Shown piece after piece: positions 26,136-51,653 of a stretch of DNA of 64,000 nt; the stretch's first letter is position 1, and each line of letters opens with the position of its first letter. The stretch lies in assembly GCA_965113315.1 (NCBI GenBank), contig OZ220368.1. One strand, 5' to 3'. The translations under genes were made by a program, and so were the position numbers. The DNA comes from Podarcis vaucheri (lineage: Eukaryota). The notes beneath the pieces were generated by a model that was not told where the DNA came from, did not search any database, and saw nothing but the letters and a program-made list of their open reading frames with translations.

Positions 26136-28130
26136 GCACATTAAGCTCTGTCACTGCTTGACAGGGGGCAGAATTGTACACTAAGGCTTGTTCTTCTGTG
26201 TGTTCAGCAGTCCTAGGCTAAGAAATCTTAAGTTCCCAGATAGTACCTTGGATCCCTTTTGTAAGGAAATCAGTGTTACCAGAAGATTTGAGGATACCAA
26301 ATGTAAGGAGGTTGATTTTAATGATGTTGCACTCTTTGTTCGCTTTTATTTTGATCTAAAGTTTCTCTGAAGGCTTAGAAAAAGCTAATAGAAGAAAATG
26401 AAATACAGTACATACTATGCTGAAAGATATCTGAAAGCAAATATTAAATGAAATTGGTCCCTCTGTGTCCCTCTTAGAAAAATGTAATTCTCTGCATATC
26501 AGAAAGGTGGATATTGTGCGTATTTGGGCACCAGCAGATAGAGGAGCATCTTGAACTAGTGTGAGACCGTTTTGTATTAGATGAAGATTCCCCAGTGAGT
26601 AATTTTCAAACACTTAACAGTATAGTAGGTATGGGTTCCCCCACAAGCTGACCCAGTAAATACTTTAGTGATTACAGGAGCAAAGTTGGGCTTGATTCCC
26701 CCCTTCCAGTGTAACAGTCCTCAGACACTACCGTGGCTGTTATCTTCTCCAAGTTGTGGTTAGCCAGGTAAGGAAAAGGATAGCTGCTAACTCTGTTAAG
26801 ATCCCTGTTCTGCCTATTTCTGGGGTAGCTGAGATAAAGTGGACCTGGCGGTGATATATTCTGTGGATTGACATGATCTTGTCTGGGAACAATGGCTCAC
26901 ATGGCAGCCCAGCACTTAAGTATAGCTAAGCCTTGCACCATTAATATCTCACAATGACACAGCTTCTGTAATACCTTGTGATGGAGAAGTTATGCTGCTG
27001 TCAGATCATAATTATTGTGGTGTTTTAAGGCCCCGAGGCTTTGTGCAGCTGTTAGTGCACTTTTCCACATTGCACGCTTAAATTTGCTCATTTATTTTAT
27101 ACCATGTCCCTCTGCGAACTAGTCTAGGATCCTCTTCCATCAAGTTTGTTCCAGTAAGGTGTTTCCCTTGCTCCAGATAAACCCTGGGTATTCAAGCTTC
27201 TGCTCATGAACAAATATTCCTCTATAATTATGTAGGGTTAGCTGAAATATAACCTTGGAGTAGCACATGGTTCCCAAGCTATTCAAGTATAGCACCTGGA
27301 CAGTTCAGTGATGTGAACAGTGAATGCCTTGCCTTGTGGTCTAATATGTGCTAGAAGTGCTGTTGACAATCGCTGCATGATGAGACAGAGTGAGTTGGAA
27401 AGAGCAGGTGGCAAACAGCAGTGTTATCTCCTGGGCCTCAAAGAAGGGACTCTTGGAATCTCAGTTCAGGAATGAAGGAAGGAACAGTGGCTGCCAAGAG
27501 CCAGTTACCCAAACTAGACTTGCACAAGCTGGTTGAGAGTCAAAATGGAGCCCTAAATGGAACTCTACTCACAAGTTGTTATGCTGGACCCTTCTTTCCA
27601 AAAGAACATTGTCCCTGTCATCTATTAATTAGAAACTTTGCCTTAATGGATACCTGGAAAAATAATGAGCATTTGGTTTAAACCTTATTTTCTTTAACAG
27701 TATTTAGCTGAGGACATGATCAGTTTCCTCACCCAACTGCTTAGATTCATATTATAGCACTAAGCATTGTTTATTTTTAGGCATAATTAAACTTAGAATA
27801 GCTGAGCCAAAAATAATATCTTTATAACAAAAACCTGCAATCCCTAAAGTTGTTTGAGGGATTCAAGCAAATGGAAAAATAACTATTGCTTAACTAATGC
27901 ATTCAAATATCTCCTTAAATATGTTAAGCTCAAGGCAGAGCGCGGCGGCGGGGGCGGGGGGGGAATGACTGATGACGAGTTCCAGAGTTTATTGTTCTTA
28001 CTATGTTTCTATCCAACCTTCTTCAAAGTGGTTACAGTGCATAGTATGGAGTGGTCTCTCAACTGAGCTGTTGAAATGGAAATCCACATAGCATCTTTGG
28101 ATAGCTCTTGTAGACTGCAATACAAAAGTA

Positions 28131-28523
28131 CAGTGGTGCCTCGCAAGACAAAATGAATTCGTTCTGCGAGTTTTTTCGTCTAGCGAAGTTTTCGTCTTGC
28201 GAAGCACAGTGTCGGAAAAGTTTTGGAAAAGCTTCAAAAATCATCAAAAAAGGCTACCACACCACGTTCTATGAGTTGCTCCTCGAAATCAAGTCACAAC
28301 TGTATTAACGGTGTTAAGAAAAAGGAAACAAACTTGCAAAAAACGCTAGACGTTTTCGTCTTGCGAAGCAAGCCCATAGGGAAATTTGTCTTGCGAAGCA
28401 GCTCAAAAACCGCAAAACCCTTTCGTCTAGCGAGTTTTTCGTCTTGCGAGGCATTCGTCTTGCGAGTTTTTCGTCTTGTGAGGCATTCGTCTTGCGAGGC
28501 ATTTGTCTTGCGGGGCACCACTG
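28131..28523. mobile_element. Tc1/mariner-pogo MITE, family B (AT-rich core)
   Basis: TIRs CAGTGGTGCCTCGCAAGACAAA / TTTGTCTTGCGGGGCACCACTG, TA flanks, many ttcgtcttgcga subterminal repeats. Confidence 0.92.
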
Positions 28524-29858: not shown

Positions 29859-29958
29859 GCATACAGCTTTGCCATGGGGAGCTGGCCAAAGAATGGACTC
29901 TTAGACATGAACAAAGGCCTGAACCTACAGCACATAGGAAGGCCTCACAGTGGGATAG
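29859..29958 (+). CDS. ERI3: Internal (penultimate) coding exon of ERI1 exoribonuclease family member 3, a DEDDh exonuclease; carries the ExoIII His
   Basis: Strong acceptor (tctttttcctttttcttttgcag, AG at 29857-58) and donor AG|GTCAGT at 29959. The 100 nt read in phase 0 as AYSFAMGSWPKNGLLDMNKGLNLQHIGRPHSGI plus a split codon G|. This matches the recalled vertebrate ERI3 C-terminal region (human AYSFAMGCWPKNGLLDMNKGLSLQHIGRPHSGIDD). Confidence 0.95.
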
Positions 29959-32010
29959 GTCAGTAGCATGACTTCCTTCTCTCGCTCCAGTCCAGGTGTA
30001 TTTTTCTCTGTTTGTGGAATAGTGTATAGTGGCAGGCTCATCTGCAGTTCCCAAGGATGTCTGGCTCTTATCTGTGGAAGGCAGCTTATCACTGTCTTTG
30101 GTGTGGCAAAAACTTGAGCATATAGGTTTAGGGCTGCCACTACCTCTGGAATACAAAAGGATGCTGGATCCCGAAGGAGCTGGTAGTAGAGAAATAAGCA
30201 TGCTCCACTTTGATATTGTTTATCTTTTGTCAGTCTAGCATCCAGATCCATTACCTCTATATATGTTTCTAAGCCACTTGACACTTGCTGCTGCATTTGA
30301 GTGGCAACGGTGAACATGATGCCTCAGAAGTGCAATGCCTTTGTCTTCCTTCCCCCATAGTGGGGCTTTGCCAGATCATCATGGTAGGGTCCTTCCTGAG
30401 GTCATGCCAAACCACCCCTCACTTGGCCACTGATTTTAGAATCCATTTTTCTATTCAAGTGTGTGTGTTTTAGCCATGATCATCCCACCTTCTGGATCCA
30501 ACAAGTTTTGGAGAGCTGGCTGTTTGTCAGTCCTGCTAGCATACATCTAGGAGAGTATATACTGTACTTCTCTTCAGCTTTTGCTGTACTTCTCTGAGCC
30601 TTTGCCCAAAAGTCCTAAAATCTCTAATGTGACAGTCCTAGCTGGTATGGGCCAATATATATCTTGTGCTTCCTTGTCCTGTGCGCGGGAGAATTACTAG
30701 AGGGTTTGTTCTTTAGGAACCTGTGTGTCGTGCCAGTCCAGGAAAATATGAAAAGCTCTCAGATTGAGGGATATTGATACAACCTGTTCATTGTTTCCTG
30801 TTCTTTATGTAAAACCCTTCAAATGTCTGACCTTTTAATCCGACTAGCTGTATTTCTCCTTTCCTTTGCCCCTGCCTAGGCGTGTCCACCTCTGTCTGCT
30901 TCTTGCTGTTGTGCATTTACATTTCCTAGGGTGAGAGACTTATGTGAGAAAGCTACCCACCACCCGAGCCTGGAGGAAGCTGTTTAATATTGTTTCAAGA
31001 TCCTAACCACTAAACTACCAAATCAATATGAGTTAAGGAGATGAATTATTTAAAGCTTACCAGCTTTTAATTAGCAAGCTCCTTTTGAACTATGGATCTG
31101 GTTGCTTCATTGATAGGATGTAGCATTGAAATTTTGCTTCTGTGCCTGAGTGTAAATTCATTTCAGCAATATATGTATGCTGTAGGAAAAGCCCACAAAT
31201 TGGGCTGGAGGGGGAGCCTGATGCAAAACCAGTTTCATGTTGTTGCTAGGGACCCCTTAGAACCATTCATCTCCTCTCTGTGTTTTATAGGAGTGTTTAT
31301 AGTGTCTCCTCTTACCACACTAAAGCAACAAACATCCCTAGAATATAATCTGTCACTTCCTTTAATTACCTTGTACATTTATCGGACTGTCATTAGTTGG
31401 CTTTGCCCTGCTGGATAGCAGTGCACAATAGTGGTTTATTTTCCCCAATCTTCTTGACTGACTTTTCTTTCCAGGGGCTCTTGCTTCTTCATTTCAGTTA
31501 AACAGCCTTGAGGTGGGAGCACATGCTGCTACTGCTGCTTCTTTTGGTGTGATGCACTTGCATGCCATCTGAGGTTGTAGCGCTGAGGTTAAACACTGCG
31601 CCATATCTGCTCTGAGCCCAGCAGTTAGCCCTTGAGTAAGGTTGTCGAGCCTGACTTCTCATTTTAACAAGGGAAGTTTTCCTTCTCACTGTAGTATTGT
31701 GCCAAGTATGTCTCCCTACTCTCCCAAACATACTCCATTTTGCAAACAATGGTAAAGCAGCTTTCGGAGTTGTGATTCGTTCAAGCTTGTCGTGGCTCTT
31801 TTACAGTTTGTGTAGACCCTAACAATGTGTGTCAAGTGTAGTTTTAAAATTAATAAATATTTTCCGTTACTGGAAGACAGTAATGTGTTTTTTTCTCTGG
31901 ACCTATTCAGGAACTATTGCACATTTATATAGAAAAATATTCCTAAAATATGTGATTTCCAAATGCTTGACAGTGACCTTAGTAAGTGTTACTTGCCATA
32001 AATGGTGTAA

Positions 32011-32439
32011 TGTCATGTGAGTTTGGTCTAGAACATTTCAGTTCAAAAGCAAGCACTTCAGTTGGGGAGGCCAGGAGCCCCGATAGAAATAGTGAAAGAG
32101 GGGTTGACTGGCAGGTAGTCTCACTAGAGATGAAGCAAACTTCAAATCAGATATTCTGATGAGATTCAGCTCTGTTGTTGCTCTTCTTCATCAGATCAAG
32201 GAGCAGCAGCACATTCTGGGCTGGATGAATGCTAGACTGAATCTTGACAACAGGTGTGATGGTTGGCAGTCTGTTGTAGTGGAGGATCACATGTTCTGGA
32301 TGCAATCTCTCACTTTCTTCCTCTGATACAGTGGCTGAGGGAGCCTGGGAGACATACCTGTCCTCACTCTGCTCCATTCTTTGGTAACCTCTCAGATAAA
32401 GTATTGTAATGTTCAGTCTACACAGGACTGTCCTTGACA
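32011..32439 (-). mobile_element. Possible old solo LTR (TGTCA...TGACA)
   Basis: Minus strand begins TGTCAAGGACAG. Size and composition resemble 60229-60695. TSD not recovered. Confidence 0.3.
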
Positions 32440-33379
32440 ATGATTTGGAAACTCTTATCACGCACAGAATTCTTTGGTGAGCTTTCTGAGAAATGGGCAC
32501 AGAGAATATATTAAGGCAATTCTTCCTCAGTTTCTTGGCTGCAAATTATCTTTCAGGCCTGATTTAAAGTGGTGGCTATAAAAGCCCAAATGGTTTGTGC
32601 CTAGCGTATCTTGGGGAGCAGCTTCTCCCATACAAGTCACCTCAAGCTTTATCGCTTCTGGCTGTGCATGGTTTACTTAGCATCCCTGTAGTGGCATGGA
32701 GTTCCTTTGCTTTCCCTTCCTTGGTAAAGGATCGAAGAAGGACCCTGCAGTTATAGTTGTATGCTGGCCTCTAGGCCGAGTTGCCATGAAGTAGCAGTTT
32801 TGTTTGTTTGTTTTTGCTTTACACACCCTACAATGGAGTGGGCTGAGATCTGAGGGAGCCTCTTCGCCTTCATTGTTCAGCAAGTGCTGAACACTGGTTA
32901 GACAACTCTACTGATGATTTGCCAAGGACTACCTGTTTTCCTTGCTTTCTGTCTTGACTTCCTTCCCAGCAAACCCATAGTTAGTGCATTTGCAGTAGCC
33001 TAATCTACTCATTGCTGCATTAATCAAAAAGCTAGCACCCATGAACTGACTGTGGGGCTGTTTTGAGTGTGGGAAGGAATTGAGAACTGCATGTGTGCAC
33101 ACATATACCCTAGCATGCAGAACAATTTTGGAAATCGAATGTAGATGCCTTACAAGCTGCCCAACCAAAGCATGTAGTGCAAATGGCAGCCTGATTACAC
33201 TGCCCTGGCTATGCACAGGCCATCTCCCTTAACTCACGAAAGCCTCATGGGAAAGCCTACCTATTTGAAAGGGTCAACCACCAATATGGTGTGAAGTGCA
33301 GGTGATGCATCTGTATCTTTCTGGCTTCCCCTCTCTCTTTTCATTTACTGATTGGAAATCTAGGAAGGTTAGGGTGTTA

Positions 33380-33720
33380 TATTGTTCCTGATCCTGAGCA
33401 TTAATTAGGCCTGCAGAAGAAGAAGAGGGATTGCGTGTTTTTAACAGGGAGGTTAATGGGATGCTCACAGAGTAGACAGTTTTAATGAGCTTCAACTTGC
33501 TGTGCAGTGAGTTTACTCTTTGTGTTAAAAGGGTCATCCTGCAGTAGCTTGATGTGGATTGTCTCCTGGCCCCCAGTGTCAGAGGGGAGCATCTGTCATA
33601 GTCCAGGCAGGGCGCATTCACTTAGTGACAAGATTCTAATTAACTCCCACCAAGCTGGCCACCCGCCTGCCCCATGGGGAGCTGCCATGGTGCAGCCTCT
33701 TATCTTTACAAACTCCTCAT
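33380..33720. promoter_or_regulatory. Candidate conserved non-coding enhancer containing copy 1 of the 54-bp duplicated element
   Basis: Repeat-free; TTAATTAG, TGTCA/TGACA and CTAATTAA motifs. Conservation not verified. Confidence 0.5.
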
Positions 33721-33949
33721 TCTGTATATAGAGTTTGTGTTTGGAGAGAGACAGGCAGGCTTTCATGTCTAATGTAAAAGGACAGGTGTGATTGTGCCTG
33801 TGTGGGTGTGTTCATGCACTTGCCGGGTGTGCCAGCAAGCTAGGGCTGTTTACTGTAGGAATGACATATCTTGTCATGCAATGTTCTTTGTTCTGGAAGC
33901 TAGTACGTTGGGCTGCCCTTTGGTAGTCCATAACAACCTCTTAGAAATC

Positions 33950-34415
33950 TAGTTTCTTAGCGCATTTAGTCCAATGCCCTCCTTGATTCTGAAAATCCTG
34001 AGCTTAAACCACCCCCAACAGATTGCAGTCCAACCTCTGCTTGAAGATCTTAGGATTAGTTCGTTTCATTGTTGAACTGCTCACAGATTGTAGAGTTGTA
34101 AGGTACCTTGAGGGTCATCTAGTCCAACCCCTGCAATGATCTCAACTAGATCATCCATGACAGATGGCCACCCAACCTCTGCTGAGAAACCTCCAAGGAA
34201 GGAGAGCCCACTACCACTCATAGGTATCCATTCCACTGCCGAACAGCTCTTACTGTCTGAAAGTTATTCTTGATGTTTAGTCAGAATCTCCTTTATTGTA
34301 ACTTGAAGCCATTAGTTTGGGTCCTAGCCTCTGGAGCAGGAGAAAAGAAGCTTGTTACATGTGACAACCCATTAGATATTTGAAGATTGCTATTATGCCT
34401 CCTTACAATCTCCAC
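33950..34415 (-). mobile_element. CR1 3' fragments (an older piece at about 33950-34085 and a younger one at about 34087-34415)
   Basis: gtagagttg..gggtcatctagtccaacccc..caacctctgct..acctccaaggaaggagag..ttccactgccgaacagctcttactgtc aligns with the CR1 at 10854-11295. Confidence 0.85.
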
Positions 34416-34489
34416 TCAACTGCTTTGATCAGTGGAATTGGCACTACTACAGCTACCACATAATGCCTCTTCCGCATTTGTAAGAACTC

Positions 34490-34765
34490 TTATCATTTAG
34501 TTTGGCATCAGCTGCACTTCGGAACTCCCTGCCTATTGAGATCAAGCAGGTGCCTTCACCATATTCTTTTTGGTATAAACATTCTTGTTTATACAAGCCC
34601 ATCCATATGTTTAGAAAGTTGAAGTAATTAAATCTGTTTTAGTATTTTTAATTTTGTATGTTTTAAGGTATGGTTGTGAATTTTCTCTGTTTTATCTGTT
34701 TGTAAACTGCTTTGGGGTGGGCCCCCCACATCAAGCAGAGTAGAAATTGTAATTAATAAATAAAC
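34490..34765 (+). mobile_element. Old L2 3' end
   Basis: cggaactccctgcctattgagatcaagcagg (WNSLP-like) followed by the tgtaaactgctttggg...aagcag...aataaataaa tail. Confidence 0.6.
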
Positions 34766-35691
34766 AGCGGAGTTTGCCCCACAGCAGATACCAAGGTAGT
34801 GCCCCATTACTACTAATTCCTCCTTTCCTGAAACATCTGTAATGTGTTACTTATCACATTGCTGTGGAGTCTGTAGCAGACTTCATCACTGTATTATTTT
34901 TGCTAATTTCCCACTTCATTCTACCCATATAATCTCCATAGACCCACTGTATTCACTTTCTTGCTTTTCTGTGCAGGTGCAGACACAAACTGCTACTCGT
35001 CCTCCCTTTTGGTTGTGCCAGTCCTCTTTTAACAAGCTGTATCTTTCAGTTGCTACATCTCAGTCATGGGAGCCATCCCACTAAGTCCTATTAATACCTA
35101 TTGTCGTAGTTCCCTTGCTTTACAAGCAGTTCAAGCTCATCTTGTTTATTTCCTACTACTGCTGTGTGCAGCAGTGTATAGACATAAAAAACCTTAAATA
35201 ATCTGCTGCAATGTGTCTCCTGCTGTTTTATTGTGTGTGTTTTGCTATACACCCAGATCGGCCATCTCCTCCTGCAGTTTCTCCTATAATATATAAATCT
35301 CTTTCTCTAATGCTTACCTTTATATTGAATATTTGCAGCCGTCCCTTTATCAGTAGTGGTACCAGGATGGGGTACTTAACTTCAGGCTTTAGTTTAAAAC
35401 CTTCCTGATCAGGCTTACCTGCTACTTTCCAGTAGTCCTTTACTGAGGAAAATTAAGCTGGTGACCCTAAAAACCAACCTTTCTTCTCAACAGCATTTGC
35501 ATTGCTAGTTATTCACCTGATGTATTCATCCCCCCCCCCCACTCTTTGTGTCATCTGCCTTTTGCAGCCAAAATAATATTTTTTTTAGCCCAAGAACCAA
35601 TTCCTTCCCAGGGACTGTGCTACACGAGCAGTCAGGCCAGACCTAAAATAGGGAAGGAGTGGAGCCAAAAGAGGAATATGTGATTAGTGGA

Positions 35692-35790
35692 GCATAGGAA
35701 CAGCCCTGTTGGACCAGACCAAAGGCCTGTGTAGTCTATTATGCTGTCCCCACAATGGCCAAACTGTTAGGGAAGCTTATAGGAGCACAA
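35692..35790 (-). mobile_element. CR1 3' UTR fragment
   Basis: cataggaacagccctgttggaccagaccaaaggcc...cacaatggcc. Confidence 0.6.
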
Positions 35791-36074
35791 CATCCCAGAA
35801 GGCAAAATCATAAGCATGTTTTTCACAATGAAGGGCACATTCTGCCCAGGAAGGTGGACTTCCCTTGTATATTTTCTGTTACCACAGCTTAGGGACACAT
35901 TGCAGCAATGCGCAAGGGGGGAAAATGGTCTGCACTTTTATCTACAGGATTTTTCAGCGCTTGTGGTTCCTGAGAGACATACTCCAGTGAGTCAGTGAGG
36001 GGAAAGGGGGCATAGCCTGGGGAGAGAGTCAGGAGCCACATGGAGAGGATTGGTGGGTTGAAGATTCCCCATTC

Positions 36075-36312
36075 CTGTTTTACAGGAAGAATTGACAAGG
36101 ACATCACCTGAGCCCCAAGGTCCTTCACCTCCCCCCTCAGAGTTTTGTAGTCGAATGTGATACGTTCATAGTTGTCTCTGGTGTAATTCATTCCCTTGGG
36201 GAAAAGCAAAAAAGGATAATGATCGGTGAACTTGATAAGAGTTGACAACTTGTTCATCACATCCTGGATCTGCTCACCTAGGAGACAGCATATTCATTTG
36301 TTAACAGATTCA
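36075..36312 (-). mobile_element. CR1 ORF1 (SGNH esterase domain) relic
   Basis: ICCLLGEQIQDVMNKLSTLIKFTDHYPFLLFPKGMNYTRDNYERITFDYKTLRGEVKDLGAQVMSLSILPV matches the recalled amniote CR1 ORF1 pattern VCCLPGARIRDV..L..LI.P.D.YP.LL.HVGTND.....I..DY..LG..VK..GAQVVFSSILPV. Confidence 0.85.
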
Positions 36313-37699
36313 GTCAGCACACAACCAACTCCATACCACTCAGCAAGGGAGCCCTGGCTTCACTTCATCCACTGTTTTAGTCTTTTTGGACTTTATTTAC
36401 TGTGCATGTTCTTTCTTGTTTCTGTGCACTCTCTTGGCCTCTCTGCATTTCAGGGTATATACTCTTCTCATTAATACTTGTCTTGGGTATCAAACAGTGA
36501 ATGTGGATACTGTGGAAAATTTTGAATTGGAATATATTCTGCTGCCCTAAATAGTTTGTTTCATTTGTGCTTAGTGTGCCTTGATAATTTTAGATATAAA
36601 TATTTCAAAGTTTTTCTAATAGCCAAAAAAAGCACATTGAATTGAATTGAAAAATGTGATTATGGGGGGGGGGATTAAAGACATGATCTAATAGCATATC
36701 TTTCCTTCATACTGTTTGACTTCAAGGTAGAGAGAACCAAGGCACTGAAAACATACTAATTTTAGCATGCCTGAAGACCTGTGTGCCATGTGCTTCTATG
36801 GATAAGTTACCTGGCAGAAGCTCCAGACAAACTGTAGCGAAATCCTCTTAGACGGTTGAATCCAGTGAAATTGTCGGGTTCATACAAGGAACTTCCCCTC
36901 CCTCTCTTTTCCCCGCATGCCCCCCACTCCTCAAATTTGCCCTGGTGGTTTGGGGAAAACTTGAGAGCAGATTGGTACATGAGGTGAGGAGAGGGAGAGG
37001 AAGTTCTATTGTGCAAGCAGAATTCCTTACATGAACAGAACAACTTTATTAGATGCAGCTCAGTCTTGAAGTGTGCATGGCCATGATGAAGTTGGTAGCT
37101 GCTCAGATTCTTCAGAATCTGATTGTATTTAAAAAGAAAGTGCCTTTCTAACTCTGAGGAAATTCTGATCCCTTGATAGCTTTCCAAGCAATGGTTTTCT
37201 GACATAAGTGGGAGATCTTGCGACTGATATGGCCCAGTTCCCAGTTTTAAGGTTTCTCAAACTACATCACATCAGTCTGTTTTGAGCATCTTGCTCTACG
37301 ATTGATTCACTGTGGTGCCCCTTACTCACAGAGAATGGGCAGGAGTGGGGTGTGGCCCTAGACCAGATTTATGGTAGGGGGCCAACTGTCTCACAGCCTA
37401 AGGGATAGGGCCAAAGACTCCAGAGTTAAATAATTAAAAGAGACTAAAATAAAAATCATCAGAAATGTCATCAAATGAGCAGTGTCATTTTGAATTAGTG
37501 CTGCTAAAGGTCAGGAAGCTCAAAACAGGTGAAGCGGATGCTCTGTGAGTGAGGCAATATGGCAGATATTTCTGGCAAGGAGAGAGTATGGGCTGGCAGG
37601 CGGGTGGACGAGACAAGGCCCTTTCTGCCCAGGATGTGAGGAGAGGTTTTTGGAAGCAGAGAGGTGCTTTGCGTAGGTACTGTTGGCCTGGGAGGAGGG

Positions 37700-38110
37700 G
37701 GTTTGGGCAGGATACAGGCCGAATGTCTGTCAGTGTCCAGTCAGAGCGCATTAACGTGGTGACATGATTCTAATTAACTACTGTGAGAGGTGTCACAGTG
37801 GGAAAGCCAGTAAGCGCAGACACGCTTTTAGAAAGAGAAAAAAGCAAAGTGACAGTCCTTTTTGTGTGTGTGCTCTCTCCCCTCCGAGTGGGAGTGTGTG
37901 TAAAGCTAATTAGGATGTCTGGGCTGGCTGGGAACCTTGAGCTGGTGCTCTTTTGCTTTCAGTCATTTAAGTTTTCAAAATCCCTCTGATGGGACTCAGT
38001 GGCACAGTGGATTACTGTGCGCAAAAGTGACAGAACACTCTTGCCAGCGTTCAGCCCTTTTTAGCAAAGATTCAGCGCTTCTTTTTTCCTTGCAGCGGCA
38101 GGGGGCATGT
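37700..38110. promoter_or_regulatory. Candidate conserved non-coding enhancer containing copy 2 of the 54-bp element
   Basis: Multiple TGACA/TGTCA, two TAATTA, retained CpGs. Conservation not verified. Confidence 0.5.
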
Positions 38111-41100
38111 TCTTATCACTGCTGCTCTATTCCTATGCATGTTACAATGGAGGACTCAAGGCCTTTCAACTGTTTCCTATGGTTAACAAAGAAACTGGGT
38201 TGCCCGGGGGTGGGGGTGGGATGATGGAATATGATTGGGTGTTTGTGTTGACTTCTTGTCTTTCTATGTCATTCTGTTATTCACTGCAACATACTTTCCA
38301 CACCCAGCAATGGCAAAGGTAGACCCATAATATTTTGGGTAGGCTATCCATGATGGTCCCTGCCAAGTGAGCTGCAGTGGCCATTTTAGCTTGATTGCTA
38401 GTGATATAGTCCAGACCATACAGGTTTGTTTGTTTTTTTTTTTTTGCTGCATGCAGTAATTAGTGCAGCTTCTTTCTTCAAAACTATTGGGGAGGAATGC
38501 TGCAGAGAAACTTACTCATTCATGTGTATGTTGTTTAAACCACACAAATACATGCATATTCAAGTGCTTCTCCTTTTAGAAGAAAAACCCCCCAGCAGTT
38601 AGCCGGATTAAATGGTGGATTTTGGTGAGGGCATGGAACAGCCTTGTCTAAATGTGCTCACTCATGTCACTGAATGTCTGGACCTCAGGCTCTGACTAGT
38701 GTTAGGAGAGGGTCATCCTAGCCTGTGTCTGGATTTTCACAAGCTGGATCTGCAACACATCAAACACATATCCTGTACCTGCCTTCCCTGAAGTTGAGGA
38801 CTGAGGTGATGTCAGTACATTAGAAAAGGCTAGGAACAGAGTTTGTGAAGCTGTTTTGTACAGCTTCACACATGTACACAAAGAGCATGGGACTTTGGAA
38901 AAACTCATTTTTTAATATTCCTCCTCCTCCTCCTCCTCTTCTTAAAACAGCTCTTCATCCAAATCAGGAAGCAGGTTGTGCAGATTCCATAGCTGATGCT
39001 GGTCTGGGAGACACTCATAAGTGAATCCTGTGCAAGATGCTAGAATGATCCCTTCTCTCCCCAATCTTCTTTAGAGCTTGGGGGAAAGAGATTTAGTTTG
39101 CTTGCACCATGATCTGGAGACTTTTTCAAGTGGATAGAAACATTTCCCAGTACTGTTTCTGAAAGGGTTCAAGCCTAGTATGTGGTGAGAGACTGAATTC
39201 TTCTCCCAAGTCTTCTGTGTGGGAGAGACAGGGGACTTGGGGAAGAGGAGATATTGGGGCCTACTTCAAATGCTGGCTGACTACCAACATGTTGAAATTT
39301 GATGCTTTGGGAAATGGGCAGGCAAAAGATCGTGCAAAGTGCATAAAAATGAGTGTAAATGGAATGTTTTGAATAGGTGTATCTAACAGAGCTTTGCTTA
39401 AAGTAGGAGAGTATTTATAGCATGCTTGACCCCTGCCACATTTTTTCTGTCTATCAAAGGCCCTCAAGTTGGTTGACATTAAAGTTGAATATTAAATGCA
39501 TAAAACAATGTGAAAACATAATCAAAGCAGAAAGCATCCTGCATTGTGGCTGGGCACTGATGATGCTGGGGAGAGGGGCTGGACTTTCCCCATTACATTC
39601 CAAACCATGGGTGTGTGGCAGGGAGATTGCTCATTGCCAGCTTTTTGAGCTGGCACCTGGCTGCATTATGGAGCGGCCTTGTTTTTGTCTTTAATGAGAC
39701 ATTCTGGAGAGGTATGGAGGTGAGGATGTGCTGGTGGATGATTCTGGCTTTTAGCAGCCCGGCATTTACCTAATGAGAAACCACTGAGAGGTGTGGCATG
39801 GGGGTGGGCTGTGGGGGTGTGTGGATAGCAGCCAACTGGAGGCACTCCATTGCAATTTAACAAGTTTCCTTTCCTGCAAGTTCCATGACAAGACCCCCCT
39901 CTAAGTCTGTACAAGAATCCCTAAGAACAAGGTAATTAGGATGTCTCTGAGCTTCGACCCTCAGCGGAGTCCTTGGCTTAATCTTTTTCTTTCCTTAAAG
40001 ACATCTGTAACTACAATCTTTGTTTCTCTCCTTGCCTCCCCCCACTTGCCTCTCTCCCCCCCACCTTGCCTGTCTCCATATCTCCTGTCAAACTGCTGCA
40101 GACATAAATGACAAAGAAATCAGAAAGAGAGATCAATGCAGTCCAAATTAGCACTCGGAGATAGACTGTGCTGGAGATGTCAGAGCCTGACCCCTGTTGA
40201 TCCTGCAGCCTCTGCTGGTGATATTATGCAAATTGCATCCATCTGGCAGAGCTGGCTCAGAGGAGTGAGGGTGCTGGGCGGGCAGAGAACGATCCAAAGA
40301 GGGAGGTGTTTTGGAGCGCTGGCTCTATGCGTTTGGGAAGGGGACAGGGTGATGGGAGATTGGAAGTGATAGGAAGGAGAAAGGGTGCATCAGATTAATT
40401 TGTATTCTCCAGGAGGTATAAGACCAAACTCTAGATTGGAGATAAACAAACTTTATTTTGATTTGGCTTATATTTTATTTCTTATTATCTGCTTCCACCC
40501 AGAACAAAAAAAAGCCAACATCCCCCTCTCGGTAGTCTTGTTTAATCAATATTCACAAGTCATCATTATCACTGGGAGCAGTTTGAGAGGGTGGTGAACA
40601 GAGGCAACTGCACCCCCCCAGCCCCCAAAGAGCACACTGCTTCTCGATCCAACTGAAATAGGACAGGGATAATAGAAACCTCAAATTACGGTGATCGCCT
40701 TGTTAAGAAGTTTGGAAATACAGTCAGATTGCCTTTTAATGAGAGAAATATGGCTGTTAGTTAGTGAAGGAGGAGGGAATGGACCTTGTTTCAAGATCTG
40801 TAGTTCCTGCATCAAAGGGGAACTGGCTGTTTCATTTCAAAATCCAGCTCCTCAGCCTGATATTAAAAATAGTTGTTAAAGGCTTTGAGTAGCAAGACAA
40901 TTCTCTTTAACTTCCTACTATCCCTCCCCTTTTCCTCTAGCAAAAAAGGGTTGGCAAGGATTGAAATAGGCCTTTAAAGAAGTTTCCCTTTGGACAAGGG
41001 GACAGTAAGGGGTGTCTTGCTACCCAGCATGTGTGAGGTATAGCGTGATCTTTTAAACATAGTTCTCCCACCTAAAGCCAATTGACTAATGGACAGCTAA

Positions 41101-42354
41101 TAATGGGATGTTGACTTACCGTAGCCATTGTGCTAAATGGGCATAAGTTTAGTTTGCTCTGTTTGGAACTAGTTATCAGGACTTTCAAACTGGAGACAGG
41201 TGGATGTCGTCACAAAATGTTCTGGATTTTAAGGCCAAAAAATGGTTTCATTCAAAATTGATCACCCTTGACTATCTCTGCCGTGATGTTTTGTCTCTTT
41301 CAGGGTTTACCTATGAGTGTTTTGATTGTGTATTACTGAATTTTTAATCATTAATCTATTGGAAGTTTTGAAGCCCAGAACAACTACCAGCTTCTCCTCT
41401 TGTCTTACCTGGCTTGAGATGAGGAAAGGAGAGCAGTTTAAAAACTGGGCTCAGAGATTTTTTTATAATTAGAGATGCCAAATACTTCTCAAATTGGAAT
41501 TCGTCTTTGGAATTCATAACACATCCTGTTTTTGTTCTGCACACCTACTAGGCCCTTCCTTGCCTTTGGTTTCTGGTTCTATGTAACTTCACTCAGAAGC
41601 AAGATACGAAGCTGGGTGGTATGATAATATTAATTTTATAATTAGAATAAGTGTTTTTCCTTTGACACCATTTGTTTCTGAAAGAGGGTCTTTCATGTTG
41701 AGCATTTTCTTCTTAAGTGTTCATGGTCAGGACAAAATAATCTCTTTAACCATCCATTTATGTATTTATTTCTGTTAGCCTAACAGAAAGAGCTGTCCTA
41801 GTTAAAACTAAGTCCAGGGTTTTTTTGTTTAATCCTTTTGATTCATTTTTGTTATTTTCATCTGTTTGTTTTCTTTTCACTAAAATCAGAGGTGAAATTC
41901 CTGCATACGTTCACCAGGTATTTTGTTTAGGGACTACATGAGATTTTTGCCAGTATATGAGGAGCTTGATCATTCACTTTTGCACTGTGCTGCTTGCAGG
42001 ATTCCTGTTTTCTGGGGGATCTGGCTGACTTCTATATTGCTCTTGAAAACTTCAAGTTTTCTTTCTTTGGAAGCATTCTGTGGCAGAGCCCAGACTTGGC
42101 AACAGCACTATCTGACCTGAGTTGACCAGCTTTTCCCAACCATCGTTAAGATCTAACAGGCCCCTCTGTTCAGAGTTGCTGTGACCCGTGACATGTTTCT
42201 TCCTGTTGCATTGACATCCCTCTCTTGAAGACCTGACTCACAGCTTCTTCTTGCTTAAAAACTGAAGTGTTCTGTTAATTGGTTTAAGCCTCACTGCCCC
42301 ATGTCCTGGCTGGTCTTTGCAAGATAATGAACTTGGAATGTTTTTAATAGCTGA

Positions 42355-42885: not shown

Positions 42886-45500
42886 TAAAAAGAACAACAT
42901 GGTAAACTTGAAGTAGGCATTAAAAAAACAAAAACCCCAAGCCCTTGTAAATAAAAAGCAGGCCTGTAAAGTAAGGTTTTAAAGGGGCAAGTTCTTGAGT
43001 CTGCTGCACTGTGTTAGGAGGTGGAGTTCAAAGAATAGGTGTCACCACCCAAAAGACATGTTCTGTGGTAGGCCACCAGCTTTTAGGAAGAAGTAAGCCC
43101 CCCCCCCCAAGCTCGGGTTCTCATCATCAGAAAAGGAGGAAAACCTAATTAACTGATCTACATCTTTGTCTCATATAACTTCCATCACTTTGGGGCAGCT
43201 GGTTTTATTTCAATTGATACTTATTATATTATTTACTGATAGGTCTCTACCAAAGAAACACACCTACATGTATTGGAGTAAGGAAATGAACCAGTTCTTC
43301 CACTGATGTATTTCTGAAAATCTATTTATACAGTTAAGTACCTTAACATGGTGTCAGTATAGGATGGGAAAGGCTGAACATTGTCTTAATATAATTTCAT
43401 TTCAATAGCTCTCAAAGCTATACTTGAGGTTCTATCCTTCAACAATGTAAAATCTCGAGCCTGGTGTTTGGATGGTACATGGAAGCCCTGTATTTCCTGT
43501 GACCTGAAAACTAAGTAATAGATATTGGCCAATGAATGGTTACTGATATATAGTCTGCAGAAGACTGGTGTATTCCATTCTCAATTTTTCATGTTGGGCT
43601 TCCAAAAATTTCTGGAACAACAGGAGCATAACAGTTGATATACTTTGGCTTGGGTGATGCTGATTTATCATGTCAGAGGTCCTGGTCACTGTGCTGAAGA
43701 GAATCTTTCTACTTTCTATGCCCGATAGTTGACAGCTACAATACAGCAAATACAGAGCTAGTGGAATGGTACATAAGAGAATAGGTGTGTGTATATAATA
43801 GCATATGGATGCTTCATTGGTGGAATAGACTACAGAAGGATTGGGGATATTTTGTTTGGCATAGTGATACTTGGGTTTTTCTGGATTCTGAGTGACCCAT
43901 AAGACTGAGAAGTTTAAATGTGAACCTCTCAGGCAGAGGATGAGTACACAGAATGAATAATTAACCCAACTTCACTCAGCATTGCTAGCTGCACTACTGC
44001 AGAGAGGTACAGTTTGCTCTTGAACAAAAAGTCGTAATTTTTCTTGTTCTGGAGAAAGGTACTCCTGATGAACAAAGACTACCCAAGGCTTTGTGAGAGT
44101 GCTTGTCTCTTTACCTTGGAAACATTTTGTCCCACAGTAAGGGCAGCCATTTTGTATAAAGATATACTCTGTGGTGAGTGAACCTCCCTACCACTGCCCC
44201 CCCTTTCCTGATGTTTATTTACTGGAATAAGAGCAAGGTAAATACAGTAATTTTTCTGGTTTATTATTCAGGCTGAGACAGATGCAAGCTGGGCTGTTTT
44301 GTGGGAGACCATGATTGCCTGACCCCCCCCCCCCGTCAAACCCTTTCTATATATAACTGTGTTGAGAGAGACATTACAGATTTGTCTCTACTTGTCTGTA
44401 AAGCAAGAGCAGCCTCTGTCCTAATGAGAAGAATATGGCTGCTAGTTAGCAGAGGGGTGGGTCGCGTAGGCTAAACGAGATAGTTAAACGGCACTGATTG
44501 AAGGTGGGGGTGAAAGGGCAGCACAATTATGTGCTGGAGAATCAAGGGCCCTGTTTGATTTGGGAGTTCTAAGCTCCCAGCCGGTGTCAGTAGTTTAGCT
44601 GAGAATTTTTTTGTAGGCCAAAGACAGGAAGGATAAAAACTATGAGAATGAGGAGTTACTATTATTAAAGTCCACAGAGCCCCATCCCTGTTCATTCTTT
44701 AACTATTTCTAGGCCCATATATTTTACGCGTTCCTAAAGCACGCTCTCGTGAGAGCCAAAACTACCCCTGTCCATGGTACACTCCAGGATTATGTAGCCA
44801 AGGAACAATTGGGGACCTTTATAATGTCCAGGCATTTATTTTTTTAAAGTTAACACAAGCAACACTGGCTGCAGTGAACCTGAGTGATGCTTGTGTGTGG
44901 TAAGCTGTTAGTGTGAAATCTTCTGCCACTCCAGTTTTCACCAGGCCTTGTGCATATCTTCTTTCTTTGTGGTTTTGTGATGATGTGGTGAGTATCACTA
45001 GAAAAACAGGCAGTAAGTTACTTCACAAGATTGGTGTGTCACGTACTGGTTCTCTTTCAAGAAGCTCCACATTTCTATTTGCATAAATCAGACTTTCTTT
45101 CTGGGAAACGTGGATTAAAAGTTGCAGCACCTCACCCCCAATTTCAGTTTGTTTGGAACTTGCTCCAGGTCAGCCTCCCTACTGTTCTGATACTTTACTA
45201 GGAAAGACCCTCCTCAGGTTACCAAAACAGTTAAGAAGCATTTTCAGGTATGGAGGCATTTTTCTTCTTCAGTTGGGTTTGTAGGCAACAGCATTTGGTG
45301 CTTTACTTTGGTGATCCTAATTTGTCTTTCCTCTCCTCTTTCCTTTCTTGCTGGTTTTGCCATCAAATCTATTGGAGCTTATGGCCTTTTACCCCAGCAT
45401 GACACGGTATATGAGGGCATTATTGCATTCTAATCAGACCACTCAACTCAGTAACAGATTTATTTTTTTTGTATGCTAGTTTAAAAGTAATGTAAAGTAA

Positions 45501-46661: not shown

Positions 46662-46895
46662 GTGGTGTTGCGGCTAGCATATTGATTTGTATGTGGAAAA
46701 CTTGGGTTTAAATCTCCGCTCAGCCAAGCTCCACGTGGCTTGAACAGTCACTATCTTTCAGTATAGCCTACCACACTGGGTTGGTTGTGAGACAAACATG
46801 GTAAAACAAAGGGGAGCAGAGTTTGATATAAAAGTTAGCTCATTTCTTAACTAATTAGTTCTAAAGGAAGAGTGGGAGATGCATGAAACCAATAA
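46662..46895 (+). mobile_element. Old CORE/MIR-like SINE carrying a foreign 36-bp patch
   Basis: gtggtgttgcggctagc..gggtttaaatctcc..cagtcactatctttcag..ctaccacactgggttggttgtgag. Collinear with 8512-8750. Confidence 0.6.
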
Positions 46896-48179
46896 GCACA
46901 CATTTTGGCAGTTTGTTCTGATTTTGAGCCGAGAGTCCTTTTGGTAATAGCTGTCCTTCTAGGTATTAATTGCTCCATTTAAGAACATTTGTGCAATACA
47001 AATAATACTAATAAAGCACAAATATTATTAGTAAATGACAACATTCTAGAGTTCTTACTTTAAATAATCATGTATCAAGATATTTTGTAATCTGCATCCC
47101 TTTTTAAAAGAAAAGTTCTAACGTGCACACCAACATTCTTCCTGATGTCTCTGCCTTTTAGGCAAATACCATAATATTTTGCACGTCCCTCTCTCACTTT
47201 GAGGATGGGTATGAAGGCTGAGCTCGTTTTAAAACTTGAAATCTAGAACATGCGCACCAAACTTCATTAAAGTACTTCAGTGTTTTTTTAAAAAGTGTTA
47301 CAAGCAAACTAATTTTAAACAGGTAAGTAGGCAAGTTAAACCAAAAGCTTAGCTTTACTCAGTCAGGTAATTTTTTTGTGCGTAGGAAGGGGGTGAATAC
47401 TGTTTGGCGAACAGCTTAGTCTCTGTTGCAACGGTGCAAGAAGACTAGCTTGGCTCCCTATGTGACAGGAATGACCAAATCAGAAGGGAACAGTGGTGTT
47501 GGCTCCAGCCCAAACTGTCGTGGCAGTTAACTCCCCGTCTACGCCTCCCTGGGGAAATAAAAAGAACCATTGATTTTCCTCATTGCTTGTACTGCCTGGT
47601 TCTGGATTATAACAGCACAAATACAAACACATATTTGAGCCCGAGACTGTGACCACTTGGAGGGGAGCAAGTCAGTAAATATTGTGGGGCTGGGCTACTG
47701 GCTTAATGAAGGACAGGGCATAATCACTAACACCTAGAGCAGCGCCTGATGCAAAGCAGTGATTAAGAATAGGGGTCAGAGGCCTTTTTCAGAGGTAAAT
47801 TAGCAATGAATTAGTCTGTTTTCCCCAGATGAAAAATGCTGGTTCCCTTGTATTTTTCTTACTATTATCTGAGGTGAGGTGGGGTGGGGGAGACACATGC
47901 ATCAACTCAACCACCCTCCCTAACAATACTTAGGGCGAGTGCCAAGGTGCTTGCTTCCTCAGCCTTTGTCTGGTGTGTTCGTGACTCTGGTGGTCCCCTG
48001 CAACCTTAGCAGCAATTAGGGACTGATTTATTGTCCTACGACCGAACCCCGCAAAGTGTACTCAGAAGGGGGGCTGCATGGGTTGAGGCTACCAAGGGCC
48101 TCCAGCACCATCTCTGTTGAACAACAATCTAATCTTGATTGCAGAGGGAGTGGGGAGGGGAGATGGATAAAGAAGAGAA

Positions 48180-48660
48180 TTGGAGATAAATGTTAGCTCA
48201 TTTCTTAAGTAATTAGTTACCTCCTCATCCCCGTGTTGTAATTGTGAACAAGCTGTAATGTTTAATTAGTGTGTAAATGAAACCCCAATTTCATAATGGC
48301 TGCAGTGACAGCGCTAAGTGAGACAGGCACAGAAGGGGCCGCATTGTTTCAGCAGGAGATGAAGCTGTCGCCCAGCAAGCCGTGCGTCGCTGAGAGAAAA
48401 TGGAAATGATAAACGAAGTGAGGCTAATTAGCAAAATCATACAGGCCCCACTGATGGTTCTCATCAAGGGGAGGTAATGAAGCGGGCAGGCCAAGCTGAG
48501 AGGGGATTAATTGGAACCGATTCCTGCTCATAGAGCACAGACTCACCACCTCTCTCCGCTGAGACTGGGCCCTTGTCCCACCGGGGCCCTTTGAGGAAAG
48601 TGGAATGATTGGCTCGCATTCAGAATGCAAAGTGAAGTTATTCCTGGCCTCACAAAAGCT
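48180..48660. promoter_or_regulatory. Candidate conserved non-coding enhancer
   Basis: TAATTA x3, TGACAG, GGATTAATTG, CpG-retaining and repeat-free. Conservation not verified. Confidence 0.5.
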
Positions 48661-50884: not shown

Positions 50885-51653
50885 CAGTGGTGCCTCGCAA
50901 GACGAAATTAATTCGTTCCGCAAGTTTTTTCTTCTTGCGAGTTTTTCGTCTTGCGAAGCACGGTTTCCCATAGGAATGCATTGAAAATCAATTAATGCGT
51001 TCCTAGGGAAACCGCCTTCAGACCAGGTCCGGGGACAGTCTGTCCCCCGACCTCTTCTGAAGGCTGGGGGGGGGGGAACAAGGGCTTTTCTTCCCACTGC
51101 CAGCCTTCAGAAGGCTGTTCTGAAGGCTGGCGGTGGGAAGAAAAGCCCTTCTTCCCACCTCCCGCCCCGCAAGCTCCGGGGACAGGAGGGCTTTGCTGCC
51201 CACCGCCAGCATTTTAAAAGCCCCTGCTGTCCCGGGGCGATTTTAAAATGCTGGCGGGCCGGAGCGAAGCCTCCGCTGTCCCGGGGAGATTTTAAAATGC
51301 TGGGGGTCGGCAGCGAACGCTTCGCTCCCGCCCGCCAGCATTTTAAGATCGCCCGGGGCAGCTGAGAAGTCTCCGCTGTCCCGGGAAGGCAGGCGGGGGG
51401 GAGCAAAACTTTTGCCCCCCGCCGGCCTTCAGAAGAGGTCCAGGACCTCTTCTGAAGGCCGGCTGTGGGCGAAAGTCTTTGCTCCCGACCGCCAGCAATT
51501 TAAAACAGGTCCCCGGAGATTTCCCTATGGGCTTTCGTCTTGCGAAGCAAGCCCATAGGGAAATTCGTCTTGCGAAGCGCCTCCAAAACAGAAAACCCTT
51601 TCGTCTTGCGGGTTTTCCGTCTTGCGAGGCATTCGTCTTGCGGGGTACCACTG
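50885..51653. mobile_element. Tc1/mariner-pogo MITE, family B (GC-rich hairpin core)
   Basis: TIRs CAGTGGTGCCTCGCAAGACGAA / TTCGTCTTGCGGGGTACCACTG, TA flanks. Same subterminal repeats as 28131-28523. Confidence 0.92.

What the first reader, a model, noticed from the sequence alone, without database searches (positions are those of the whole stretch)
33592..37779. Ungapped 54-bp element present twice inside two enhancer-like blocks, 4.1 kb apart
Seen: 33592-33645 TCTGTCATAGTCCAGGCAGGGCGCATTCACTTAGTGACAAGATTCTAATTAACT and 37726-37779 TCTGTCAGTGTCCAGTCAGAGCGCATTAACGTGGTGACATGATTCTAATTAACT match at 46/54 with no gaps, in the same orientation. Similarity stops abruptly on both sides, and I see no TIR, TSD or tail. 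The identical positions include TGTCA, GTCCAG, GCGCATT, GTGACA and CTAATTAA, with mismatches lying between them. Established: TGACA/TGTCA is the TALE (MEIS/PREP/TGIF) core and TAATTA a homeodomain core. Inference: this is an old local duplication in which a fixed-spacing regulatory module was retained while the flanks diverged. That would make it a pair of paralogous (shadow) enhancer cores in one ERI3 intron.
Basis: partly seen in the sequence, partly recalled or inferred. Interest (0 to 1): 0.72.

Follow-up and report, generated by a model that had tools for sequence, protein, structure and literature searches.

The report
Twin enhancer cores in ERI3 intron
A 54-letter DNA stretch occurs twice, 4 kb apart, in an intron of the ERI3 gene, and both copies sit at matching places in a second, likely distant, vertebrate; they are likely docking sites for developmental regulators, probably left when one old gene switch was copied and split in two.

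Summary
The pair is real (46/54, ungapped) and was found only twice in the 1.6-Gb genome. It lies in the 63-kb last intron of ERI3. A host-DNA contig from a metagenome (L131; sauropsid-like, likely bird) carries the ERI3 exon and both copies in the same order, 1,147 bp apart instead of 4,134, with an unalignable spacer. 44 of 54 columns are invariant over the four copies, and four columns separate A copies from B copies. The duplication therefore predates the species split, and both copies are constrained. Copy A is the 3' end of a 318-bp block (92% conserved); copy B is the 5' start of a ~490-bp block; the two arms are unrelated. Best reading: one ancestral enhancer (arm-core-arm) was duplicated or split, and each half kept the TALE/homeodomain core. 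Close rival: a repair-mediated copy of the core was pasted beside another enhancer and co-opted. Short local pairs are common here (10 in 1.26 Mb). Enhancer activity, target gene and age beyond two species are untested. Verdict: a modest, testable variant of duplicated conserved elements.

The parts
33592..33645 (+). Core copy A (54 bp); forms the 3' end of conserved block A
   Evidence: 49/54 identical to L131 copy A; ortholog identity falls from 17/20 to 7/20 right after it
37726..37779 (+). Core copy B (54 bp); forms the 5' start of conserved block B2
   Evidence: 51/54 identical to L131 copy B; ungapped ortholog identity upstream 7-11/20
33331..33648 (.). Conserved non-coding block A = 261-bp left arm + core
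   Evidence: 293/318 (92%), no gaps, vs L131; stops in all six frames, no codon-position bias
37706..38194 (.). Conserved non-coding block B2 = core + about 415-bp right arm
   Evidence: 406/540 (75%, including a 50-column gap) vs L131
37394..37537 (.). Conserved block B1, about 190 bp upstream of copy B; two TGACA-type and one TAATTA word; unrelated to arm of A
   Evidence: 123/145 (85%) vs L131
33649..37393 (.). Spacer, not alignable between species; holds a genome repeat at 34078-34764
   Evidence: up to 33 overlapping hits in the 1.26-Mb pool
29859..29958 (+). Penultimate coding exon of ERI3 (synteny anchor); the last intron runs to about window position 93190
   Evidence: (E 8e-17 to PDB ERI3)

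Best explanation
The two 54-bp copies come from one local duplication older than the split from the second species, both have been kept nearly unchanged, and they likely act as a fixed-spacing binding core for TALE (MEIS/PREP) and other homeodomain factors in two enhancers that probably arose by splitting one ancestral arm-core-arm enhancer. Shown: two copies; orthologous conservation; A/B-diagnostic columns; copy A ends one conserved block and copy B starts another; the arms are unrelated. Inferred: enhancer function (about 0.8); the bound factors; origin by tandem duplication with complementary loss of arms, or by an insertion that duplicated the core (about 0.5, against about 0.4 for copy-and-paste). 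The target is likely a gene of the RNF220-ERI3-DMAP1 block rather than necessarily ERI3 (inferred).
For: Two copies only in five genome searches. A looser pattern gave 14 hits, 12 elsewhere, against 6 for the control; none of the 12 exceeded 31/54. L131 holds exon, block C, A, B1 and B2 in order, with the spacer unalignable and 3 kb shorter. Orthologous core differences are 8 of 108, against 4 of 12 fourfold sites in the exon (Fisher p 0.019). Columns 31 and 33 sort A with A and B with B, and 28 and 40 also separate A from B. None of the 10 variable columns falls in the 17 motif columns (p 0.015, motifs chosen post hoc). TGACA-type words: 10 in 951 bp of blocks against 2.5 expected, all 10 present in L131; 4 of them lie in the cores. 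Both ends of the paralogy coincide with block edges, which a split explains without coincidence. ERI3 and RNF220 are listed among the 100 non-TF genes with most ultraconserved elements (PMC13513235 passage).
Against: No functional data. Only one other species, and its taxon is inferred. No remnant of a second left or right arm was found in either species (flank tests: 2 of 16 at p<0.05, none surviving correction; arm HMMs), so complementary loss is not seen directly. If B1 and B2 are one 800-bp element, copy B is interior and the edge argument weakens. Size and spacing fit repair-mediated duplication (PMC2671141), and short local two-copy pairs are common in this genome (10 in 1.26 Mb). No PBX-HOX TGATNNAT word occurs in any of four blocks. 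The core is not more conserved than the left arm.
Confidence: 0.45

Rival explanations
1. Repair-mediated duplication: during double-strand-break repair the core was copied from one enhancer and pasted at the edge of a neighbouring one, where it was co-opted. Function is as in the best reading; only the origin differs.
For: PMC2671141: 824 of 1,136 human duplicons lie within 5 kb of the donor, at least 50 bp by design, with no poly-A tail in 39 of 39 proximal cases inspected. Here: 54-65 bp, 1.1-4.1 kb apart, sharp ends, no arm remnants. Ten such pairs in 1.26 Mb.
Against: It needs the copied piece to start or end at one block's edge and also land flush with the other block (rough chances 2% and 5%, post hoc; landing flush could be selected). 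Breakpoint hallmarks cannot be read without an empty site.
Confidence: 0.33
2. The blocks are constrained for an RNA-level or splicing role in the ERI3 pre-mRNA rather than as enhancers.
For: They are intronic and in the same orientation as the gene; the core contains a branch-point-like CTAAT word (motif recalled).
Against: Fold z-scores of 8 strands tested run from -1.21 to +0.06. Consensus fold: 0 of 10 pairs compensatory. None of 7 Rfam matches at E<=5 in 30000-42000 overlaps either core or reaches its gathering score. Stops occur in all frames. No pyrimidine tract follows the word.
Confidence: 0.08
3. Both copies are exapted relics of an ancient transposon family inserted twice.
For: Some conserved elements derive from old repeats (established; recalled). 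Dfam and Repbase were not available, and genome searches give lower bounds.
Against: No third copy in the genome searches or by profile over 1.26 Mb. Two independent insertions 4 kb apart with none elsewhere is unlikely. No TIR, TSD or tail.
Confidence: 0.07
4. Gene conversion between the copies, not selection on each, keeps them alike.
For: Copies are close and in direct orientation. L131 copy A matches this genome's copy B as well as its own ortholog (49/54 each).
Against: Four columns keep A and B apart in both species, and the tie is explained by three changes private to this genome's copy A. Conversion would not explain 92% conservation of the arm.
Confidence: 0.04
5. A neutral, lineage-specific doublet with no function.
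For: Such pairs are common (PMC2671141).
Against: Both copies are 91% and 94% conserved in a species whose spacer cannot be aligned.
Confidence: 0.03

Closest known systems
Duplicated conserved non-coding elements (dCNEs; described in PMC2020477 and PMC3595034, passages seen; McEwen 2006 itself not held)
   Same: Short non-coding sequence conserved both between species and between paralogous copies; presumed enhancer.
   Different: Described dCNEs derive from whole-genome duplication and lie next to paralogous genes. Here both copies share one intron, 1-4 kb apart, and only a 54-bp core is shared.
Repair-mediated duplications / doublets (Pace et al. 2009, PMC2671141, parts 1-2 of 8 and passages read; Thomas 2004 seen only as cited there)
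   Same: Two copies, at least 50 bp, under 5 kb apart, no tail.
   Different: Those were mostly recent and were found inside transposons. Here both copies are old and constrained, and donor and acceptor cannot be assigned.
Partial degeneration of overlapping CNEs after teleost genome duplication (Woolfe and Elgar 2007, PMC1896008, passages)
   Same: Duplicated elements keep a shared overlap while the edges degenerate; a minority class (about 8%, passage cut off; figure legend) shortens in both copies.
   Different: There the halves serve two gene copies. Here both would serve the same locus, and the ancestral element has not been seen.
PBX-HOX plus MEIS/PREP hindbrain enhancer syntax (Grice et al. 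2015, PMC4489388, passages)
   Same: Conserved CTGTCA site in every copy.
   Different: No TGATNNAT site in any block.

Membership tests
dCNE (WGD-derived) | Non-coding and conserved across species | tested here: met
   one other species only
dCNE (WGD-derived) | Significant similarity between paralogous copies | tested here: met
   46/54 and 48/54
dCNE (WGD-derived) | Copies beside paralogous genes in different genomic regions | tested here: not met
   both in one intron; no other copy found
dCNE (WGD-derived) | Conserved to fish | not testable with these tools
   no vertebrate genome collection on hand
Repair-mediated duplication | At least 50 bp, one other location, within 5 kb, not tandem | tested here: met
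   54 bp, 4,134 and 1,147 bp apart
Repair-mediated duplication | No poly-A/T tail | tested here: met
Repair-mediated duplication | Empty site with microhomology, filler or deletion at the acceptor | not testable with these tools
   both species carry both copies
PBX-HOX/MEIS hindbrain syntax | Conserved CTGTCA | tested here: met
   4 of 4 cores
PBX-HOX/MEIS hindbrain syntax | TGATNNAT within 100 bp | tested here: not met
   0 in blocks A, B1, B2, C in both species
Shadow enhancers | Overlapping activity on the same target gene | not testable with these tools
   needs reporter and deletion assays
Ancient transposon relic | Dispersed copies in the genome | tested here: not met
   counts are lower bounds
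Ancient transposon relic | Dfam/Repbase match | not testable with these tools
   no such library on hand
Structured ncRNA | Stable or covarying fold, Rfam match | tested here: not met
   (only four similar sequences, so covariation has little power)

The most novel reading that the evidence does not exclude
Enhancer fission caught in the sequence: one ancestral arm-core-arm enhancer split into two enhancers in the same intron, each keeping the indispensable 54-bp core with a different arm. The core would then be a rigid, portable TALE/homeodomain platform whose tissue output is set by the arm, and the further short direct pairs in ERI3 introns may be repeats of the process.
Probability: 0.35. 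Interest if true: 0.65.

Novelty: new variant of a known kind. Interest (0 to 1): 0.47.

Why it matters
How conserved non-coding elements multiply inside one regulatory block, and why they are so rigid, are open questions. This pair is a natural experiment: one 54-bp core with fixed spacing sits in two different conserved contexts, so core and arm can be swapped and mutated separately. Outgroup genomes can decide between splitting and copy-paste in a single alignment. If it is only a co-opted repair duplication it remains a tidy but ordinary example.

Tried and rejected
Sequencing-run search with the library word ATAC: none was listed; this is no evidence either way, and no read data were examined. 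Pattern scans of viral contigs and genome contigs (49, 68) gave 0 hits each. Of the metagenome scan's 5 loci on 4 contigs, L130, L133 and L134 match little beyond the seed and have CpG o/e 0.87-1.11, so they were treated as chance; L131 and L132 are one contig. No genome-wide profile search was obtained, so faint dispersed copies remain possible. RNA structure and Rfam: negative. Coding: negative. Residual paralogy of the arms: negative. Literature: six short core words occur in 0 papers. Ten searches in all listed no paper on this pair, but subscription journals are largely missing. McEwen 2006, the main dCNE catalogue, was not held, the PMC13513235 supplement could not be read, and either may list this pair. 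Ten supplements of PMC4489388 held none of six terms. PMC3480646 passages gave no statement that the Sox21 pair is a duplicate, so it was dropped as an analogue. PMC3436827, PMC5728398 and PMC3599049 passages had nothing on this locus. PMC11704014 names ERI3 only beside chr3 coordinates and was not used. Four look-ups of earlier scan findings returned nothing. My guess that the DNA before 46818 is a SINE got no BLAST support.

Full report
Observation. The two stretches are as stated: 33592-33645 and 37726-37779, same strand, 46 of 54 identical without gaps, and the similarity stops on both sides. Chance is excluded (self-BLAST E 5.9e-10; binomial estimate 2e-10 over all position pairs). An ERI3 exon lies at about 29859-29958 on + (E 8e-17 to PDB ERI3) and the last exon at window position about 93190, so the pair sits 3.6 and 7.8 kb into a 63-kb last intron.

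Copy number. DNA searches with copy A, block A and block B and two half-element patterns with 2-3 mismatches each returned only the two copies. A looser pattern gave 14 hits, 12 of them elsewhere, against 6 for the reversed control. None of the 12 exceeded 31/54 over the whole core. A four-copy profile over 1.26 Mb of fetched DNA found nothing else below E 1.7. These counts are lower bounds.

Background. In six regions totalling 1.264 Mb I counted short pairs (at most 150 bp, within 20 kb, at least 45 bits, no other hit in the pool). There were 10: 3 in the 264-kb ERI3 region, 0 in the 200 kb upstream and 7 in four 200-kb controls. All 3 ERI3 pairs are direct, against 1 of the other 7; with the finding itself removed, this is too few to call an excess. 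So the mere existence of a pair is ordinary and fits repair-mediated duplication as described by Pace et al. (PMC2671141). What matters is conservation.

A second species. A 20-letter pattern scan of metagenome contigs gave 5 loci on 4 contigs. One contig (L131) has two matches 1,147 bp apart. It aligns, in order, to the ERI3 exon (91%), a block at 30910-31148 (82%), block A 33331-33648 (92%, ungapped), B1 37394-37537 (85%) and B2 37706-38194 (75%). Only 16-18% of the span aligns. Its exon peptide equals the window's, including the two residues at which the PDB protein differs (that the PDB protein is human is recalled). It shares no repeat with 1.26 Mb of this genome and has 55% GC. I infer a non-lacertid sauropsid, likely a bird; turtle, crocodilian or a distant squamate are not excluded (4 of 12 fourfold sites differ).

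Four copies. 44 of 54 columns are invariant. Orthologs match at 49 (A) and 51 (B), and paralogs within a species at 46 and 48. Columns 31 and 33 sort A with A and B with B; at 28 and 40 both A copies differ from the shared B state. The duplication therefore predates the split and was not wiped by recent conversion. With 4 pre-split against 8 post-split changes, the age beyond the split cannot be fixed (Poisson interval for 4 is 1.1-10.2). Orthologous core differences (8/108) are fewer than at fourfold exon sites (p 0.019), and the spacer changed by 3 kb.

Anatomy. Conservation of block A ends 3 bp after the core, and conservation of B2 begins within about 20 bp before it. The arms are not paralogous: 2 of 16 flank comparisons reached p<0.05 against shuffles and none survives correction; profiles of the left arm, B1 and the right arm found no convincing second copy (best other local hit E 0.019; two weak pool hits at E 0.002 and 0.011). 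The layout is thus left arm-core, spacer, B1, gap, core-right arm. The core is no more conserved than the left arm (5/54 vs 19/261). B1, 190 bp upstream of copy B, weakens the edge argument if it belongs with B2.

Likely function. CTGTCA is the MEIS/PREP consensus (PMC4489388 passage); TAATTA as a homeodomain core is recalled. Both, and TGACA, are invariant in 4 of 4 cores; none of the 10 variable columns falls in the 17 motif columns (p 0.015, post hoc). The three blocks hold 10 TGACA-type words (2.5 expected) and 5 TAATTA (0.5 expected), all present in L131; 4 and 2 of these lie in the cores. No PBX-HOX TGATNNAT site occurs, so the hindbrain syntax is not met. RNA structure, Rfam and coding explanations failed. 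ERI3 and RNF220 are listed among UCE-rich genes (PMC13513235 passage), and a supplement row of PMC2688929 assigns a regulatory block to DMAP1 (that it spans ERI3 is recalled). Enhancer activity, bound factors and target are inferred, not shown.

Origin. Splitting of one arm-core-arm element explains why both ends of the paralogy meet block edges. Copy-and-paste by break repair explains the size, spacing, sharp ends and missing arm remnants, but needs two alignments with block edges. I put them at about 0.5 and 0.4; one outgroup alignment should decide.

Comparison and verdict. It works like a duplicated CNE but fails the defining feature of the described class, copies beside paralogous genes (PMC2020477 passage). 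It meets the testable features of repair-mediated duplication. It resembles the partial degeneration seen in Fugu duplicates (PMC1896008 passages), but within one locus. Ten paper searches listed no description of this pair; the main dCNE catalogue and one UCE supplement could not be seen and may contain it. The pair is real and constrained, and a new variant of a known kind; interest 0.47.

Noticed in passing
window 46818-46860 and 48176-48218: Second ungapped direct pair in the same intron, 38/43, 1,358 bp apart, also ending in a TAATTA word; only two copies in the genome by pattern. Cross-species status unknown; L131 does not reach it.
   Followed up: partly
G000:C25 about 55872618 and 55874421 (L022 end, L021 start): Third short direct pair in an earlier ERI3 intron, 53 columns, 83%, 1.8 kb apart; genome-wide copy number not checked.
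   Followed up: partly
window 40737-40764 and 44422-44449: Weak 28-bp direct pair, 89%, E 0.4; may be chance.
   Followed up: no
G000:C25 about 55859705 and 55864806: 454-bp direct duplication at 99.8% identity, 5.1 kb apart, in an ERI3 intron: a recent local duplication or a young repeat.
   Followed up: no
window 30910-31148: Further conserved block (82% to L131) with weak inverted self-similarity (E 2e-4).
   Followed up: partly
core columns 4-10 and 15-21: A 7-bp word repeats at 11-bp spacing (one helical turn) inside the core: 7/7 in both L131 copies, 6/7 in copy B, 4/7 in copy A.
   Followed up: partly
window about 48140-48520: Homeodomain-word-rich block that looks like another conserved enhancer by eye; single copy in the 1.26-Mb pool apart from the 43-bp pair.
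   Followed up: no
window 51014-51642 and 28111-28512: GC-rich element with nested long inverted repeats and related termini at two places, probably a non-autonomous DNA transposon.
   Followed up: no
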